Virus record (IMG/VR): IMGVR_UViG_3300028832_000095
Span: 64,001-128,000 of that record
Direction: 5' to 3' (one strand)
DNA from: a virus
Lineage: Duplodnaviria; Caudoviricetes
DNA length: 64,000 nucleotides
Positions 5,907 through 11,309 of the stretch are shown here, piece by piece. Position numbers and translations under genes: made by a program. The notes beneath the pieces are model-generated. The model had not been told where the DNA came from. It was given only the letters and a program-made list of their open reading frames with translations, and searched no databases. How positions within the stretch are numbered: position 1 is the stretch's first letter; each line of letters begins with the position of its first letter.

Positions 5907-5935
5907 TTGACAAAAATGAAATAATATGTTATAAT
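5907..5935 (+). promoter_or_regulatory. sigma-A promoter of tRNA operon
   Basis: Consensus TTGACA-N17-TATAAT with extended -10. Confidence 0.9.
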
Positions 5936-6054: not shown

Positions 6055-6127
6055 GTACCAGTAGCTCAGTTGGTAGAGCATATCCCTTTTAAGGATAGGG
6101 TCAAGGGTTCAAACCCCTTCTGGTACA
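6055..6127 (+). tRNA. tRNA-Lys(UUU)
   Basis: Cloverleaf GTACCAG/CTGGTAC; anticodon loop CTTTTAA. Confidence 0.95.
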
Positions 6128-6134
6128 TTTTGAT

Positions 6135-6222
6135 GGATCCTTAGCTCAACAGGTTAGAGCCAGCGTCTTATAAACACTAGGCCCTTACAAGGTATATCTG
6201 GGTTCGAGTCCCAGAGGATCCA
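6135..6222 (+). tRNA. tRNA-Ile(UAU) with long variable arm
   Basis: GGATCCT/AGGATCC; loop CTTATAA; 19-nt variable region with CCTT/AAGG stem. Confidence 0.85.
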
Positions 6223-6229
6223 CTCAAAT

Positions 6230-6302
6230 TACTCCGTGGTGAAGTGGTAAACACATACGGCTTTGACCCGTACATTCGTTGGTTCAAATCCAACCGGAGT
6301 AA
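6230..6302 (+). tRNA. tRNA-Gln(UUG)
   Basis: TACTCCG/CGGAGTA; loop CTTTGAC. Confidence 0.95.
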
Positions 6303-6309
6303 TTCTTTT

Positions 6310-6384
6310 CGGAATGTAGATCAGTTTGGCTAGATCGCCACATTTGGGATGTGGAAGTCGCAGGTTCAAATCCTGTCATTCCGA
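6310..6384 (+). tRNA. tRNA-Pro(UGG)
   Basis: CGGAATG/CATTCCG; loop TTTGGGA. Confidence 0.95.
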
Positions 6385-6385
6385 T

Positions 6386-6528
6386 TATGTAATATAAGTG
6401 CTCCGGTTTTATACTACCTTGACGCTAGATAGAGGTGGAGGAAGGTGTAACAGAGTTACTTAAAGCTATTGCCTTTGAAAATCCAAGCAGGAGTTAAATG
6501 GAGTTTGATGAACAGCTTATATTATATA
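6386..6528 (+). ncRNA. putative structured spacer RNA
   Basis: 14-bp closing stem (2 G-U) filling the Pro-Leu spacer, internal hairpins. Confidence 0.5.
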
Positions 6529-6529
6529 T

Positions 6530-6615
6530 GCTACTGTGATGGAATGGCAGACATGAAAGACTTAAAATCTTTTGCCGGATACGGTGTGCGGGTTCAAGTC
6601 CCGCCAGTAGCACCA
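6530..6615 (+). tRNA. tRNA-Leu(UAA)
   Basis: GCTACTG/CAGTAGC; loop CTTAAAA; long V-arm; encoded CCA. Confidence 0.95.
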
Positions 6616-6685
6616 ATCCTCAAATTGTTGAGGATTATGTCATTTTCGTTTTGTTGTCTCCTTTTTTACTAATCTTATCTTTTTA

Positions 6686-6874
6686 TTGTGGGAAAGTCAG
6701 CAGTACAAGAAACTATGTTTTAAAAAGAGTGCATTCTTCTTTTACATAGTTTATGATTTCTCCTGTTTCCGGATCAATCATACTCTTGTAAATTGAATAT
6801 TTATAAGTCGGATTTCCTGTCTCCATTAAAATCTATTGATTTTTAATATTCACGAAATACTGACTTTCCCGCAA
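6686..6874 (+). ncRNA. putative multibranch ncRNA with C/U-rich loops
   Basis: 15-bp closing stem TTGTGGGAAAGTCAG/CTGACTTTCCCGCAA enclosing nested helices. Confidence 0.6.
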
Positions 6875-6890
6875 ACCTTATTTTCAGAAA

Positions 6891-7316
6891 GTGGTGTTGA
6901 AAGTGATACAACAAGAATCGTTACAAATTCCATGTGAAGGAATATTTTGGGTAATAGATAATTGCTTAGTCTATTTTGCAGATAAGGTAAATCCAAAAGA
7001 TCCTTATGATTCAACAGATCTTCTACATAAAGATACATGGAGAGAAATAAAAGACGAATATCTTGTAGACGGAAAACAGGTTTCCTTTGATTATTTTCCT
7101 CGTGGAAGAGTTGAAACATTAGTAATTCAAGATACTGACGGAACCTTAGATCACTATGAAGCGACTATATATTTAGATAAATGTATCAACAATAAAGAAT
7201 TGATCTCGGAGGTTATAGATACGTTTAGACTATACCTTCCAAATGTGAAGGTTGAAAATGGAGGTCAGTTATTTATAGATGGTAGTCACTATACTTGTAA
7301 TAAGTGTAGAAAATGA
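6891..7316 (+). CDS. hypothetical protein, paralog of 46389..46814
   Basis: GIFW..H..W..Y(F/Y)PRGRVE..DGS(D)HY.C shared. Confidence 0.75.
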   Translation: MVLKVIQQESLQIPCEGIFWVIDNCLVYFADKVNPKDPYDSTDLLHKDTWREIKDEYLVDGKQVSFDYFPRGRVETLVIQDTDGTLDHYEATIYLDKCINNKELISEVIDTFRLYLPNVKVENGGQLFIDGSHYTCNKCRK

Positions 7317-7319
7317 TAG

Positions 7320-7437
7320 GGAATCTTCGTTTAAAAGTGATTAGCAACCAAAAAGAAAGACTGAATTATCAGTTTAGTTAATCCGAAGACAGTTCCTGAT
7401 CAGAACTATGTAAGGTACAAACTTACAGATTCCACCA
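7320..7437 (+). ncRNA. tRNA-like RNA with acceptor stem, T-like arm and CCA end
   Basis: GGAATCT/AGATTCC-A-CCA; GTAAG-GTACAAA-CTTAC arm; no canonical D arm. Confidence 0.6.
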
Positions 7438-7443
7438 ATATTT

Positions 7444-7516
7444 GCCGTGGTAGCATAAATGGATATGCAACATCCTTCTAAGATGTCAGATACGGGTTCG
7501 AGTCCTGTCCACGGTA
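7444..7516 (+). tRNA. tRNA-Arg(UCU)
   Basis: GCCGTGG/CCACGGT; loop CTTCTAA. Confidence 0.95.
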
Positions 7517-7522
7517 TGTTAT

Positions 7523-7676
7523 GTAGGAGTGGCGCAAGAGGTAAGACACACCGGATATAGAATCCGGTGGAAGAATTAAACATTGGTGAGTTCGACTATA
7601 ACCTAGGATGATGTCAGAACAAAATGTCCCTTGTTTATGATATCCTGTGTAGGTTCGAATCCTACCTCCTACACCA
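7523..7676 (+). tRNA. tRNA-Leu(UAG)-like RNA with 81-nt variable-arm insertion
   Basis: GTAGGAG/CTCCTAC-A-CCA; CCGGA-TATAGAA-TCCGG; GTAGG-TTCGAAT-CCTAC. Confidence 0.75.
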
Positions 7677-7680
7677 ATAA

Positions 7681-7798
7681 GTCCAGACCCAAACTCCGTA
7701 GAACAATATGGGGTTTAAACGGGGAAAAATAAGTGATTAGCTTATGGAGAAAGGTGGACGCACTTGATGACGGTTTGCAAGGGCTTTACGTCATCCAC
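7681..7798 (+). ncRNA. putative structured spacer RNA
   Basis: GTCCA/TGGAC enclosing two hairpins, then GATGACG/CGTCATC hairpin. Confidence 0.4.
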
Positions 7799-7804
7799 AA
7801 ATAT

Positions 7805-7877
7805 TCCCTGTTAGATCAATCGGTAGATCAACTGACTGTTAATCAGTGGGTTGCTGGTTCAAGTCCAGCACAGGGAG
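7805..7877 (+). tRNA. tRNA-Asn(GUU)
   Basis: TCCCTGT/ACAGGGA; loop CTGTTAA. Confidence 0.95.
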
Positions 7878-7881
7878 TTCA

Positions 7882-8092
7882 GATAAGAGTGTTTAGGTTT
7901 GTTGATTTAGACGTTCATTCTTATCACCTGTAAAAGTATCTTTTGGTTTTTCGGTTTGCGTTTCCATTGGTAGCCATGCAGGTGCCTCCTTTCTTAAAAA
8001 TCAACTGAGGAAACAACACCTTTGGTGAATGGTGTGAAATACACCAGGCTCTGTGAAAACATTTACCTCACTTTCTGTTTTCACAGAGCTTT
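7882..8092 (+). ncRNA. structured trailer of tRNA operon with anti-SD elements
   Basis: GATAAGAGTG/CATTCTTATC, CACCTGTA/TGCAGGTG, CCTCCTTTCTT, 14-bp terminal hairpin. Confidence 0.45.
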
Positions 8093-9071: not shown

Positions 9072-11309
9072 ATGGAAACATTGGCAGTAAAGTATAGACC
9101 TAAGACATTTGATGATATGGTAGAACAAAGTGTTGTAAAAGACATTTTGATGAATCATATTAAGGAGAAGAAAGTAAGAAATGGTTATCTGTTTAGCGGA
9201 AGCGCTGGCTGCGGAAAAGCACAACCTTTGTATAGCAAGGTACTAACTCCTAAAGGTTACATTGCTATGGGTGAGGTTTCTGAAGGAACAGAAGTTATAA
9301 CACATACGGGATCAGTTGCATCCGTTTCGGAAGTATTTCCACAGGGAGAACGTGACATTTATGAGATACAGTTTAGTGATAGAACAAGTATTCGTGTGGC
9401 AGATAATCACCTAAATGTTGTATATAGGTACAATCAAAATAAGAAAATGAGAGAAGATTTTGTATTAACAACAATGGAGCTTATAGAACTATTAAAAAAA
9501 TCTAAAGATAAGATTAGAGTTGACCTTCCTGTGGTTGACTTTGATAAGACGGATGTTCCAATTGATCCATATCTATTAGGTTGCTTAATAGGTGACGGAT
9601 CACTCCATAATAATTTTGGTTTTTCTAATTCAGAAAAAGATGTTATTGATAAAGTATCCGGTATAGTTAGTAAGTATGATTGTTGCTTAGTACACAAATC
9701 TGGTTGTGATTATGCTATAAGTAGAACAACAGATTCTTTTAAAAATTACTATGTTTTTGAAGGAATTACTTATAAAGGACCTTATAAATTGATTGATAGA
9801 CTTGTTGAATTGGGTTATCCGAAATTTGATTCTGAAACAATTTTACAATTATCTTGCAATAAGGCGAAGATTATAGTTTCTAGGTATCCTGAACTCATCG
9901 GTAAAATAACCAAGATAACCAATGAAAATTATAATCAGCAAAATAAACTTTTAACACTCATAAAGAATATGGGTCTTGACGTTGGATCTAAGGACAAATT
10001 TATACCGAAAGAATATCTTATAAATGATGCCAATACAAGACTTCAAATTTTACGAGGTCTTTATGATACCGATGGATATACATCGTCTGGTGGGGAAACA
10101 AGTTTCTCCACATCTAGTAAAAAACTGTCCGATGATTTTGCTTTTTTAGTTAGATCTTTGGGTTGTCGTGATACGGTTATTGTTAAAAAATGTGGATACA
10201 GAAATCCAAATGGTGATTATGTAGAGTGTAGCAATAGTTATGAGCACTATATTAAATTTCCAAATAATTTAGTATATTGTTCTTCTGAAAAACATTTAGC
10301 TAGACGTAAAGAAAGACAACACGATCCAATCAAGAGTATTGTAGATATTAAATATGTAGGAAAAGAATTTTGTCAGTGTATTTATGTAGATCATGAAGAT
10401 CATACATACATTTCGGATGATTTTATTCCTACACATAATACAACCTCGGCACGTTGTTTCGCAAAGAGTCTTAATAGTTCTATAACAGAGCTTGACGCAG
10501 CTTCCCATAGTAGTGTGGATGATGTAAGGGATCTTATTAAAGATTCAAGACTGAAACCGATGGGAACTGATTATAGAGTATACATCATAGATGAAGCGCA
10601 TTCGCTTAGTAATCAGGCTTGGCAAGCTCTACTCAAGACATTGGAAGAGCCAACACCAACAAGCATTTTTATTTTTGCTACAACAGATCCTCAAAAAATT
10701 CCAAATACAATTTTATCCAGAATTCAAAGGTATAACTTCAAAAGAATTTCACATAAAGGAATTGTAAACAGATTAAAATACATACTTGATTCTGAAAATA
10801 AGAATGGTTGTAACTATACATATACCGAAGATGCCATTGATTATATCGCAAAATTATCTGAGGGTGGTATGAGAGATTCCATAACACTTATGGAGAAGTC
10901 ATTAGGTTATTCTGATAATCTTACAATGGAATCTGTAACAAAGGCTCTCGGAACTGTTGACTATGAAACAATGTTCACACTCACGGACAGCATTTATAAT
11001 ATGGACAGAAAATGTGTTATTTCGTGTATTGAGGAAACACATAGGGAAGGTCTTGATCTAAAACAGTTTATCAAGAATTATAGCTTTTTTGTTCTTGACC
11101 TTTGTAAATATGATGTATTTAGGTCTTTTGAGTATCTTCAGATGCCGAATACATATGAAGATAGGATGAAGAAGTATACACCAGATCACTATAAGTTCTT
11201 TACAGACTTACTCAATACAGTAATGCAACTCAATACAGATATTAAATGGGAATCTACTCCGAAGCCACTTATTGAATCAACACTTGTTCTTCTTTGTTCG
11301 GAGGGGTGA
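9072..11309 (+). CDS. dnaX: DNA polymerase III gamma/tau clamp-loader subunit, intein-containing
   Basis: LAVKYRPKTF, GCGK|TT, ELDAAS, IIDEAH, LLKTLEEP, TILSR, GGMRD. Confidence 0.93.
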   Translation: METLAVKYRPKTFDDMVEQSVVKDILMNHIKEKKVRNGYLFSGSAGCGKAQPLYSKVLTPKGYIAMGEVSEGTEVITHTGSVASVSEVFPQGERDIYEIQFSDRTSIRVADNHLNVVYRYNQNKKMREDFVLTTMELIELLKKSKDKIRVDLPVVDFDKTDVPIDPYLLGCLIGDGSLHNNFGFSNSEKDVIDKVSGIVSKYDCCLVHKSGCDYAISRTTDSFKNYYVFEGITYKGPYKLIDRLVELGYPKFDSETILQLSCNKAKIIVSRYPELIGKITKITNENYNQQNKLLTLIKNMGLDVGSKDKFIPKEYLINDANTRLQILRGLYDTDGYTSSGGETSFSTSSKKLSDDFAFLVRSLGCRDTVIVKKCGYRNPNGDYVECSNSYEHYIKFPNNLVYCSSEKHLARRKERQHDPIKSIVDIKYVGKEFCQCIYVDHEDHTYISDDFIPTHNTTSARCFAKSLNSSITELDAASHSSVDDVRDLIKDSRLKPMGTDYRVYIIDEAHSLSNQAWQALLKTLEEPTPTSIFIFATTDPQKIPNTILSRIQRYNFKRISHKGIVNRLKYILDSENKNGCNYTYTEDAIDYIAKLSEGGMRDSITLMEKSLGYSDNLTMESVTKALGTVDYETMFTLTDSIYNMDRKCVISCIEETHREGLDLKQFIKNYSFFVLDLCKYDVFRSFEYLQMPNTYEDRMKKYTPDHYKFFTDLLNTVMQLNTDIKWESTPKPLIESTLVLLCSEG
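9219..10439 (+). mobile_element. Ala-starting (class 3-type) intein with LAGLIDADG endonuclease
   Basis: AQPLYSKVLTP..CQCIYV..IPTHN/T; LLGCLIGDG and LRGLYDTDG; 407 aa inside the P-loop. Confidence 0.9.

What the first reader, a model, noticed from the sequence alone, without database searches (positions are those of the whole stretch)
7320..7437. 118-nt CCA-terminated tRNA mimic with an alternative fold
Seen: GGAATCT pairs perfectly with AGATTCC followed by A-CCA, stacked on a 5-bp/7-nt arm (GTAAG-GTACAAA-CTTAC), i.e. the tRNA top half with a non-canonical T loop. The interior lacks a D stem and has an interrupted long helix (GATTAGC/GTTAATC, AGACTGA/TCAGTTT) plus a 5-bp hairpin with 7-nt loop CTGATCA, an anticodon-like GAT. 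The 5' end can alternatively pair with CGAAGA..TTCC (7384-7396), which excludes the acceptor stem. It is not tmRNA (no G3-U70, far too short). Inference: an undescribed tRNA-like ncRNA, possibly switchable.
Basis: partly seen in the sequence, partly recalled or inferred. Interest (0 to 1): 0.8.

Follow-up and report, generated by a model that had tools for sequence, protein, structure and literature searches.

The report
Conserved tRNA-shaped phage RNA, expanded D-loop
A large cattle-gut phage carries, inside its tRNA gene cluster, a conserved 118-nt RNA that keeps the tRNA cloverleaf and CCA end but has a long rod with an invariant A-rich loop growing out of its D-loop; it is a new family of the little-understood tRNA-like small RNAs first seen in phage T4.

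Summary
Window 7320-7437 (+) folds as a four-way junction: a 7-bp acceptor stem with A-CCA, a 4-bp D-type stem, a 5-bp arm with loop CUGAUCA, and a 5-bp T-type arm with loop GUACAAA.

It is not a chance fold or a decayed tRNA. A covariance model found eight more copies, seven lineages in all, in tRNA islands of related ~200-kb phages from bovine and sheep gut metagenomes. Across the nine sequences, 26 of 35 base pairs show compensatory changes and 98.1% of cells pair, against 30-44% in slid controls.

The "long helix" is a 45-96-nt insertion inside the D-loop. It carries an invariant loop, ACCAAAAAGAAA, and a hairpin of variable length.

The proposed alternative 5' pairing is not conserved, so a switch is unsupported. 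The anticodon-like loop differs between lineages and has C at position 37, so decoding is unlikely.

Rfam 15 and ARAGORN do not recognise the element. The closest known analogues are T4 RNAC and RNAD (species 1 and 2), whose functions are unknown.

Best reading: a non-decoding tRNA-like stable RNA, cut out by RNase P. No RNA evidence was obtained, so expression and function remain inferred. This scan had noted the same stretch before.

The parts
7320..7326 (+). Acceptor stem, 5' strand (RNA positions 1-7). G1 is the predicted RNase P cleavage product end.
   Evidence: Pairs with 7427-7433. Six of 7 pairs show compensatory changes and 100% of cells pair. Position -1 is U in 7 of the 9 sequences (G in this window, A in L038, L063 not listed there).
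7327..7328 (+). Two-nucleotide connector U8-C9. U8 is invariant, as in tRNA.
   Evidence: Invariant T in the 9-sequence alignment.
7329..7332 (+). D-type stem, 5' strand (positions 10-13, GUUU).
   Evidence: Pairs with 7387-7390. Two of 4 pairs show compensatory changes (GUCA/UGGC in L036, GUCU/GGAC in L063) and 100% of cells pair.
7333..7338 (+). D-loop, 5' part (A14 A15 A16 A17 G18 U19). A14 and A15 are invariant.
   Evidence: Alignment A8. The assignments U8-A14, A15-U48 and G18-U55 are inferred by analogy with tRNA.
7339..7345 (+). Basal helix of the D-loop insertion, 5' strand (positions 20-26).
   Evidence: Pairs with 7377-7383. Six of 7 pairs show compensatory changes. The G25-U59 wobble is kept in 8 of 9 sequences, which fixes the + strand as the RNA strand.
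7346..7357 (+). A-rich asymmetric internal loop (positions 27-38, A-ACCAAAAAGAA). This is the most conserved single-stranded motif and the candidate effector site.
   Evidence: ACCA-AAAGAAA is invariant in all 9 sequences apart from one A to G change in L053.
7358..7375 (+). Apical hairpin (positions 39-56). Its length varies between lineages.
   Evidence: The stem's first 7 pairs show 5 with compensatory changes. The part beyond the stem is 2-53 nt long. One strain has G44-C51 changed to G-U.
7377..7383 (+). Basal helix of the insertion, 3' strand (positions 58-64).
7387..7390 (+). D-type stem, 3' strand (positions 68-71).
7391..7407 (+). Anticodon-like arm (positions 72-88) with 7-nt loop CUGAUCA at 7396-7402.
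   Evidence: Four of 5 stem pairs show compensatory changes. The loop is CUGAUCA or UUGAUCA in 3 lineages, CCGAUCA in one, GGCGCUAUU in L051/L053 and UACGCGG in L063.
7408..7409 (+). Two-nucleotide variable region (A-U), invariant.
7410..7426 (+). T-type arm (positions 91-107) with loop GUACAAA at 7415-7421.
   Evidence: Three of 5 stem pairs show compensatory changes. The loop pattern G-U-A-M-A-N-A holds in 8 of 9 sequences; L036 has an 8-nt loop, GGUAACGU.
7427..7437 (+). Acceptor stem 3' strand (7427-7433), discriminator A (7434) and genome-encoded CCA (7435-7437).
   Evidence: CACCA is invariant in all 9 sequences. Of the window's seven ARAGORN tRNAs only tRNA-Leu has an encoded CCA (read).
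5907..5935 (+). Consensus sigma-70-type promoter (TTGACA-17-TATAAT with TG extension) ahead of the tRNA island. Probable source of the transcript.
   Evidence: 12 of 12 consensus matches. A terminator-like hairpin at 6615-6636 lies in between, so read-through is inferred.
6903..7316 (+). ORF141 (137-aa form), a conserved hypothetical protein. Its stop codon lies 3 nt before the RNA.
   Evidence: 37 homologs. All ten homologs whose surrounding DNA was fetched and scanned, except the 1.75-kb contig L050, lie in tRNA islands; G002 (L002) is a second case without nearby tRNAs. No known family or fold.
7443..7517 (+). tRNA-Arg(UCU), 5 nt downstream. RNase P cleavage at its 5' end would free the 3' trailer of the element.
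   Evidence: ARAGORN and Rfam.

Best explanation
The element is the gene for a non-decoding, tRNA-derived small RNA that belongs to a conserved family in the tRNA islands of ~200-kb ruminant-gut phages. Shown: it sits in the tRNA array like a tRNA, with 4-7-nt spacers to the next tRNA in four of the lineages. All six helices of a cloverleaf-type four-way junction are maintained by compensatory substitutions. The 3' ACCA, U8, A14, A15, the T-type loop pattern and a 12-nt A-rich loop are invariant or nearly so. Inferred: the RNA is co-transcribed with the tRNAs. RNase P cuts it at G1, using the 12-bp acceptor/T-stem stack, the RCCA end and U at -1 in most copies. Its 3' end is trimmed back to the encoded CCA after RNase P cuts the next tRNA. 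It folds into an L-shape whose D-loop carries a 45-96-nt rod. tRNA mimicry provides processing and stability. The rod's invariant ACCAAAAAGAAA loop, and in most lineages the CUGAUCA loop, are the sites that engage a partner. The partner is most likely a protein or RNA that normally handles tRNA, so the RNA would act as a mimic, decoy or scaffold rather than as an adaptor in decoding. The CCA is probably genome-encoded because the altered elbow (G54, A56, expanded D-loop) would make the RNA a poor substrate for the host CCA-adding enzyme. The partner itself is not identified.
For: The MFE fold is the cloverleaf-like junction, z = -3.07. Model R1, built from three strain variants, finds homologs at 90-109 bits in L038/L039/L040, L049, L051 and L053. 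Model R2 adds L036 (73 bits) and L063 (74 bits). On nine sequences, 26 of 35 pairs have changes on both sides and 98.1% of cells pair, against 30-44% when partners are slid. None of 500 shuffles reaches any of the five measures. A structure-blind MAFFT alignment shows the same compensatory pairs. Close strains differ at 2-3 of 118 positions in the element against 6-10% in the adjacent ORF. The changes fall in loops or convert G-C to G-U. Ordinary tRNAs score 10-22 bits over the whole of model R2, which shows the shared geometry. The flanks match tRNA-array spacing. CCA is invariant in the family, whereas most tRNAs in the window lack it. T4 has an analogous arrangement: an ORF, tRNA-Arg, then RNAD (119 nt) and RNAC (139 nt). 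RNAC folds with a long arm at the D position, a hairpin and a T arm.
Against: There is no expression evidence. The only RNA library that shares words with the operon covers 7811-8060, not the element. The family was found in only some relatives: G001, which is 89% complete, and loci L037, L041, L050 and L052 have none. It is therefore dispensable or replaceable. A terminator-like hairpin (6615-6636) lies between the consensus promoter and the element. No partner, target or aminoacylation identity could be named. No + strand complement of the A-rich loop exists in the phage genome. The pair counts were made on model-fitted alignments, which lean towards the structure.
Confidence: 0.6

Rival explanations
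1. It is purely a cis-acting processing and stability signal. The tRNA-like fold recruits RNase P to separate the ORF141 mRNA from the downstream tRNAs and to give that mRNA a defined 3' end. The excised RNA itself has no role.
For: It starts 3 nt after the ORF141 stop codon and ends 5 nt before tRNA-Arg. In L049 it also directly follows the ORF141 homolog.
Against: An ordinary tRNA does the same job in relatives: tRNA-Leu, Trp or Gly follows ORF141 in L036, L037 and L041. In L063 the element lies upstream of ORF141, after another ORF. In L038 and L051 small ORFs separate it from ORF141. An invariant 12-nt A-rich loop, a conserved CUGAUCA loop and a covarying rod are not needed for RNase P recognition.
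Confidence: 0.15
2. It is a working, aminoacylated tRNA, for example tRNA-Ile(GAU), with an oversized D-loop, comparable to other functional non-canonical tRNAs.
For: It has a complete cloverleaf, U8, A14, discriminator A73, CCA, and a 7-nt loop with U33 and GAU in three lineages. Functional tRNAs without G18G19/T-psi-C and with very short variable regions exist, such as tRNA-Pyl (PMC7609411).
Against: Position 37 is C, whereas a purine is nearly universal in tRNAs (established knowledge). L049 has C33. L051/L053 have a 9-nt loop, GGCGCUAUU, and L063 has UACGCGG, so no anticodon is conserved. Acceptor pairs 2-7 vary freely. Rfam's tRNA model gives no hit at E <= 10. ARAGORN fails even after the insertion is deleted in silico.
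Confidence: 0.08
3. It is a tRNA gene interrupted by an excisable insertion (an intron-like element) in the D-loop. The mature product would be a ~73-nt RNA.
For: Removing positions 20-64 leaves a 73-nt core with a normal-sized 9-nt D-loop. The insertion varies in length from 45 to 96 nt.
Against: 45-96 nt is too small for group I or II introns, and no intron family is hit. Bacteria lack the bulge-helix-bulge splicing endonuclease (established knowledge). The trimmed core is still not recognised as a tRNA. The insertion holds the most conserved nucleotides of the whole RNA.
Confidence: 0.05
4. It is a conformational switch between the acceptor-stem fold and an alternative 5' pairing (positions 1-10 with 65-77).
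For: The alternative 10-bp pairing is possible in the window sequence and its two strain variants.
Against: On the 7-sequence alignment, pairs 2, 6 and 9 of the alternative are broken in all four sequences of the other lineages. Only 75.7% of cells pair, against 73.6% in shuffles, and the covariation score equals that of the slid controls. The acceptor stem is 100% paired, with 6 of 7 pairs covarying.
Confidence: 0.03
5. It is a decayed tRNA pseudogene or a chance fold with no function.
For: tRNA finders do not call it. It is absent from several relatives.
Against: 26 of 35 pairs change by compensation across lineages whose primary sequence has fallen to 53-76% identity. Loops are invariant. 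In close strains it is better conserved than the adjacent protein gene.
Confidence: 0.02

Closest known systems
Phage T4 RNAC (species 1 RNA, 139 nt) and RNAD (species 2 RNA, 119 nt)
   Same: These are small RNAs encoded inside a phage tRNA cluster next to tRNA-Arg and downstream of an ORF embedded in the cluster. They are similar in size, 119 and 139 nt against 118 and 154 nt for the two tRNA-like elements here. RNAC's predicted fold (z = -4.57) has paired termini, a ~60-nt long arm at the D-arm position, a hairpin at the anticodon position and a T arm. Their biological role is unknown (PMC3014915, PMC9697503).
   Different: There is no detectable sequence or profile similarity: model R2 finds nothing in the T4 locus L048. 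RNAC has a canonical UUCGAAU T-loop and no encoded CCA in the annotated span, whereas this family has GUAMANA and an invariant encoded CCA. RNAD shows no significant tRNA-like fold (z = -0.83). The host range and phage lineage differ.
Canonical tRNA (Rfam RF00005)
   Same: It shares a 7-bp acceptor stem, a 2-nt connector with U8, a 4-bp D stem, A14, a 5-bp anticodon-type arm with a 7-nt loop in most lineages, a 5-bp T arm with a 7-nt loop holding U55 and A58, discriminator plus CCA, and placement in a tRNA array. Real tRNAs score 10-22 bits on the family model.
   Different: The D-loop carries a 45-96-nt insertion and the variable region is only 2 nt. The T-loop is G54-U55-A56 instead of T-psi-C. 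Position 37 is C and the loop sequence is not conserved between lineages. It has no Rfam or ARAGORN hit.
The neighbouring tRNA-like RNA at window 7523-7677 (giant variable arm)
   Same: It lies in the same operon, is CCA-encoded and tRNA-shaped with one hugely expanded element, and is conserved in the relative G001.
   Different: Its expansion is in the variable arm, not the D-loop. It keeps a canonical T-loop and D-arm and reaches Rfam's tRNA threshold (29.9 bits). It is not a paralog: R2 finds only 7320-7437 in the window.
tmRNA tRNA-like domain
   Same: It has an acceptor stem with CCA and a T arm, a non-canonical D region, and is an RNase P substrate by analogy.
   Different: It has no G3-U70 (A3-U70 here, and the pair varies freely), no tag reading frame and no pseudoknots. 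It is 118 nt long and is not called by ARAGORN's tmRNA search or by Rfam.
drum, ROOL and GOLLD RNAs (structured ncRNAs found beside tRNAs in phages and prophages)
   Same: These are ncRNAs of unknown function that travel with phage tRNA arrays (PMC5737381). drum RNA (RF02958) sits immediately 5' of tRNA-Arg in two relatives that also carry this element.
   Different: Their structures are unrelated and not tRNA-like. The element itself hits none of these families.

Membership tests
tRNA (RF00005) | Scores at or above the Rfam gathering threshold (29 bits), or is called by a tRNA finder. | tested here: not met
   No RF00005 hit at 7320-7437 even at E <= 10. The homologs are not hit either. ARAGORN makes no call on the native sequence or on cores with the insertion deleted.
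tRNA (RF00005) | Cloverleaf with a 7-bp acceptor stem, D stem, 5-bp anticodon stem and 5-bp T stem. | tested here: met
   All four stems are present and supported by covariation.
tRNA (RF00005) | D-loop of about 7-11 nt with G18G19, paired to a T-psi-C T-loop. | tested here: not met
   The D-loop holds a 45-96-nt helical insertion and the T-loop is GUAMANA.
tRNA (RF00005) | 7-nt anticodon loop with U33 and a purine at 37, and an anticodon conserved within an isoacceptor family. | tested here: not met
   Position 37 is C. L049 has C33. L051/L053 have a 9-nt loop and L063 has UACGCGG.
tRNA (RF00005) | Aminoacylation and use in translation. | not testable with these tools
   This needs charging assays.
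T4 RNAC/RNAD-type phage small stable RNAs | Encoded within a phage tRNA cluster, adjacent to tRNA genes, on the same strand. | tested here: met
T4 RNAC/RNAD-type phage small stable RNAs | About 120-140 nt with tRNA-like terminal pairing plus a T arm and an extended internal arm (RNAC). | tested here: met
   The folds show the same order of elements. This is an architectural resemblance only.
T4 RNAC/RNAD-type phage small stable RNAs | Sequence or profile homology to T4 rnaC or rnaD. | tested here: not met
   R1 and R2 find nothing in T4 locus L048. blastn against 50,697 phage records gives only chance hits inside coding regions.
T4 RNAC/RNAD-type phage small stable RNAs | Accumulates as a stable processed RNA during infection. 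| not testable with these tools
   The only RNA run available did not cover the element.
tmRNA | G3-U70 alanine identity pair, tag-peptide ORF and pseudoknots. | tested here: not met
   Pair 3-70 is A-U, G-C or U-A. There is no ARAGORN tmRNA call or Rfam tmRNA hit.
drum RNA (RF02958) | Rfam score at or above 43 bits. | tested here: not met
   There is no hit on the element or its homologs. drum hits lie elsewhere in L049 and L051.

The most novel reading that the evidence does not exclude
The RNA is a tRNA-scaffolded effector. The phage uses an authentic tRNA core to get the RNA processed, stabilised and accepted by tRNA-handling machinery. The D-loop rod with its invariant A-rich loop then does something tRNAs do not do. 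It might sequester or redirect a host tRNA-binding factor such as a defence nuclease, a CCA-end-modifying toxin, a T-box leader or a synthetase. It might also assemble into a homodimer through its anticodon-like loop, which holds a self-complementary tetramer in every lineage (GAUC, GCGC or CGCG). If so, it would give a first handle on the function of the T4 RNAC/RNAD class.
Probability: 0.25. Interest if true: 0.8.

Novelty: new variant of a known kind. Interest (0 to 1): 0.6.

Why it matters
Phage tRNA clusters have been known since the 1970s to encode tRNA-like small RNAs (T4 species 1 and 2) whose role is still unknown. This element defines a second, unrelated family with the same placement and general architecture. 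Unlike the T4 RNAs, it comes with clear comparative evidence: every helix covaries, and the likely functional sites are the invariant A-rich loop, the CCA end and the variant T-loop. That gives concrete mutational targets and a covariance model for wider searches. It also shows that a tRNA core can carry a 45-96-nt insertion in the D-loop under selection, something a review of natural non-canonical tRNAs (PMC7609411) does not list. Together with the neighbouring giant-variable-arm RNA and the drum RNAs in relatives, it suggests that the tRNA islands of large gut phages serve as expression platforms for non-coding RNAs.

Tried and rejected
1. An exact-acceptor pattern scan of IMG/VR gave 26 hits, all chance.
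2. Scans for the T-arm-plus-acceptor string and for two conserved motifs found nothing in viral contigs, nothing in genome contigs and one hit, L053, in two metagenome scans.
3. The search for related loci with the flanking HTH protein and the helicase found no relatives. With ORF141 it found two loci, neither carrying the element.
4. blastn against GenBank phages gave only chance hits in coding regions. tblastn with ORF141 gave none.
5. Whole-record model scans of G001 and G002 found no copy.
6. The RNA library X24 laid on the operon covers 7811-8060 only and gives no cover on the element, so it says nothing about expression. The substitution table of that call was cut off, so strain variants were fetched instead.
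7. The alternative fold was rejected.
8. ARAGORN on cores with the insertion deleted made no call.
9. The complement of the A-rich loop has no + strand match in the phage genome, so an antisense role against the phage's own mRNAs is rejected.
10. ORF141 function: Pfam, PHROGs, Foldseek-PDB and VIA-wide gave nothing usable (best Z 4.3).
11. The phage encodes no CCA-adding enzyme and has only a sub-threshold ligase-like hit.
12. Resemblance of CUGAUCA plus GAAA to a hammerhead core was rejected: the order and sequence are wrong and there is no Rfam hit.
13. Complementarity of UGAUC and AGAAAG to the 16S 3' end is not conserved in L051 or L063 and was left as a coincidence.
14. The first ORF141 homology search timed out and was repeated successfully.

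Full report
**What is there.**

- The window is part of a 201,895-bp IMG/VR virus record. It has about 32% G+C and almost all genes lie on the + strand.
- Positions 6055-7878 form a tRNA island with seven ARAGORN/Rfam tRNAs: Lys, Ile-UAU, Gln, Pro, Leu, Arg-UCU and Asn.
- A perfect TTGACA-17-TATAAT promoter lies ahead of the island at 5907-5935.
- The finding, 7320-7437, begins 3 nt after the stop codon of a conserved 137-aa ORF ("ORF141") and ends 5 nt before tRNA-Arg.
RNAfold returns the same four-way junction as the MFE structure (-25.6 kcal/mol; z = -3.07).
- Neither ARAGORN nor any of the 4,227 Rfam families matches it, even at E <= 10.

**Finding relatives.**

- Direct DNA scans failed, as did a blastn against 50,697 phage records.
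- Public runs showed that the operon occurs in bovine, sheep and other gut metagenomes from at least 14 studies.
- Contigs of three such runs carry a strain about 7% diverged in ORF141, with few changes in the element.
- ORF141 has 37 homologs at 46-69% identity. I fetched the DNA around ten of them and around members of the query's own 90% cluster.
- Of the ten fetched homologs, all but the 1.75-kb contig L050 lie in tRNA islands. G002 (L002) is another copy with no tRNAs nearby.
- Two strain variants (L042-type and L047) differ from the window at 3 and 3 of 118 positions. Five sites vary in all. Four are in loops, and one turns G44-C51 into G-U.

**A conserved family.**

- A covariance model built from these three sequences and the cloverleaf (R1) found full-length matches in four places:
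  - L038/L039/L040 (108.9 bits, 125 nt);
  - L049 (95.9 bits, 152 nt);
  - L051 (92.5 bits, 147 nt);
  - the 206-kb contig behind L053 (90.1 bits).
- A second model (R2) added L036 (73 bits, 169 nt) and L063 (74.4 bits, 117 nt).
- That makes nine distinct sequences in seven lineages, all inside tRNA islands.
- The element lies 4-7 nt upstream of the next tRNA in G000, L038, L049 and L036, and 3 nt in L063.
- A structure-blind MAFFT alignment already shows compensatory changes in the acceptor, T-type, anticodon-type and rod helices.
- On the model-guided 9-sequence alignment:
  - 26 of 35 pairs have changes on both sides;
  - 98.1% of cells are standard pairs, against 30-44% when the 3' partners are slid by 1-3 columns;
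  - none of 500 column shuffles reaches the observed value on any of the five measures;
  - each of the six helices has at least two covarying pairs.
- The conserved G25-U59 wobble and other G-U pairs fix the + strand as the RNA strand.
- In close strains the element is 97-98% identical while ORF141 is 90-94% identical. In distant lineages the primary sequence falls to 53-76% while the pairing is kept.
- This rules out a chance fold or a decaying pseudogene.

**Anatomy (RNA numbering; window position = 7319 + n).**

- The acceptor stem is 1-7/108-114. G1-C is invariant and pairs 2-7 vary freely.
- U8 is invariant.
- A 4-bp stem, 10-13/68-71, occupies the D-stem position. It covaries in L036 (GUCA/UGGC) and L063.
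- The D-loop begins A14 A15 R A G18 Y19. It is then interrupted by a rod made of helix 20-26/58-64, an asymmetric internal loop and an apical hairpin.
- The internal loop's 5' side, ACCAAAAAGAAA, is invariant apart from one A to G change in L053.
- The apical hairpin has 2-53 nt beyond its covarying stem.
- After the D stem come a 5-bp arm with a 7-nt loop, an invariant 2-nt "variable region" (AU), and a 5-bp T-type arm.
- The T-type loop reads G54-U55-A56-M-A58-N-A, followed by A73-CCA.
This is a tRNA core whose D-loop has been expanded.
- By analogy with tRNA I infer that U8-A14, A15-U48 and G18-U55 are kept and that G19-C56 is replaced by U19-A56 in seven of the nine sequences. These tertiary pairs cannot be tested here.
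- Real tRNAs score 10-22 bits over the full R2 model, in line with the shared geometry.

**What it is not.**

- The anticodon-like loop is CUGAUCA (UUGAUCA in one strain) in three lineages, namely G000-type, L038 and L036.
- It is CCGAUCA in L049, GGCGCUAUU (9 nt) in L051/L053, and UACGCGG in L063.
- Position 37 is a pyrimidine, and no anticodon is shared by the whole family, so an adaptor role in decoding is unlikely.
- Deleting the insertion in silico still gives no ARAGORN call.
- It lacks every tmRNA hallmark.
Pairs 2, 6 and 9 are broken in all four other sequences tested, and the covariation equals the controls. A switch is therefore not supported.
- The rod is too short for a group I or II intron, and it contains the best-conserved nucleotides.
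- No + strand sequence in the phage genome is complementary to the A-rich loop.

**How it probably works.**

- Shown: array placement, a selected cloverleaf with an extra rod, and an invariant ACCA.
- Inferred: co-transcription with the tRNAs, and 5' cleavage by RNase P. The substrate features are present: a 12-bp acceptor/T stack, RCCA, and U at -1 in most copies.
- Also inferred: 3' trimming to the encoded CCA after RNase P cuts the following tRNA.
- Among the window's seven tRNAs only tRNA-Leu encodes CCA, and the phage has no CCA-adding enzyme.
- The invariant encoded CCA suggests that the RNA needs this end but, with its altered elbow, may not be a substrate for the host enzyme.
- I therefore read it as a stable, non-decoding tRNA mimic. 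Its rod (A-rich loop) and, in most lineages, its CUGAUCA loop would contact a partner that handles tRNA. Confidence is 0.6.
- The partner is unknown.
- Every lineage's anticodon-like loop contains a self-complementary tetramer (GAUC, GCGC, CGCG), which could allow kissing dimers. This is a post hoc observation, and such tetramers also occur in some of the T-type loops, so I give it little weight.

**Comparison with known systems.**

- T4 has the same layout: tRNAs, an embedded ORF (segB), tRNA-Arg, then RNAD (119 nt) and RNAC (139 nt).
- RNAC folds into paired termini, a long arm at the D position, a hairpin and a T arm (z = -4.57).
- The roles of RNAC and RNAD are still unknown (PMC3014915, PMC9697503).
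- There is no sequence or profile similarity between these RNAs and the present family.
- I therefore class the element as a new variant of that kind, not as a member of a T4 family.
- Relatives that carry the element also carry Rfam drum RNA directly 5' of tRNA-Arg.
- The window itself holds a second tRNA-like RNA with a giant variable arm at 7523-7677.
- These islands thus host several non-coding RNAs, as noted for GOLLD and ROOL next to tRNAs (PMC5737381).

**Limits.**

- No transcript evidence was obtained. The one RNA run available did not cover the element.
- Nine sequences from seven lineages is a small set.
- The pair counts rest on model-fitted alignments, though the MAFFT alignment agrees.
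- The family is absent from several relatives.
- ORF141, its frequent neighbour, has a confident predicted fold (pLDDT 89.7) but no recognisable family or structure match.
- Earlier notes of this scan had flagged this same stretch and the operon as an array of structured RNAs. I tested those readings independently.

Noticed in passing
window 7523-7677: A second CCA-encoded tRNA-like RNA. It reaches Rfam's tRNA threshold (29.9 bits) with a ~78-nt insertion in the variable region and the loop UAUAGAA. It is 80% identical to a copy in relative G001, whose loop differs and which has no encoded CCA.
   Followed up: partly
L049:1192-1296 and L051:3886-3988: Rfam drum RNA (RF02958; 46.7 and 44.9 bits, gathering score 43) lies immediately 5' of tRNA-Arg(UCU) in two relatives that also carry the element. 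The window has none.
   Followed up: partly
window 6903-7316 (ORF141): A conserved 137-aa protein with 37 homologs. All but one of the ten fetched homologs lie in tRNA islands of these phages. The AF2 model is confident (pLDDT 89.7), with invariant PRGR and HYxCxxC motifs, but there is no Pfam, PHROG, Foldseek or VIA match.
   Followed up: partly
window 7910-8060: A 151-nt contig from a size-fractionated bovine-gut RNA library is identical to the trailer after tRNA-Asn. This hints that the region is present as small RNA, although DNA carry-over is not excluded.
   Followed up: no
window 6665-6897: A long-range inverted repeat (about 6692-6702 with 6862-6872) encloses ~160 nt upstream of ORF141. 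In strains from runs X4 and X5 this 231-nt stretch is replaced by 107 other letters.
   Followed up: no
L047:1856-2188: In one strain tRNA-Arg is cut off after its first 11 nt and followed by unrelated sequence. This looks like an insertion or recombination breakpoint just after the element.
   Followed up: no
L003:5593-5668 (relative G001): A ~75-nt tRNA-like sequence with a canonical T arm (UUCGAUU), ACCA, a mismatched acceptor stem and a 7-bp hairpin with a 13-nt loop. ARAGORN does not call it. It lies upstream of the ORF141 homolog.
   Followed up: no
L051:2317-2448 and L036:982-1126: Further over-long tRNA hits (Rfam tRNA ~46 bits over 132-145 nt) occur in relatives, so expanded tRNA-like genes recur in this phage group.
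   Followed up: no
window 9072-11309: The clamp-loader (DNA pol III gamma/tau-like) gene is interrupted by a LAGLIDADG/Hom_end homing-endonuclease domain, probably an intein. Some relatives have uninterrupted ~340-aa versions.
   Followed up: no
L063:1375-1447: ARAGORN calls a 73-nt 'tRNA-SeC' with anticodon UCA in a relative's tRNA island. It may be a UGA-reading suppressor tRNA.
   Followed up: no
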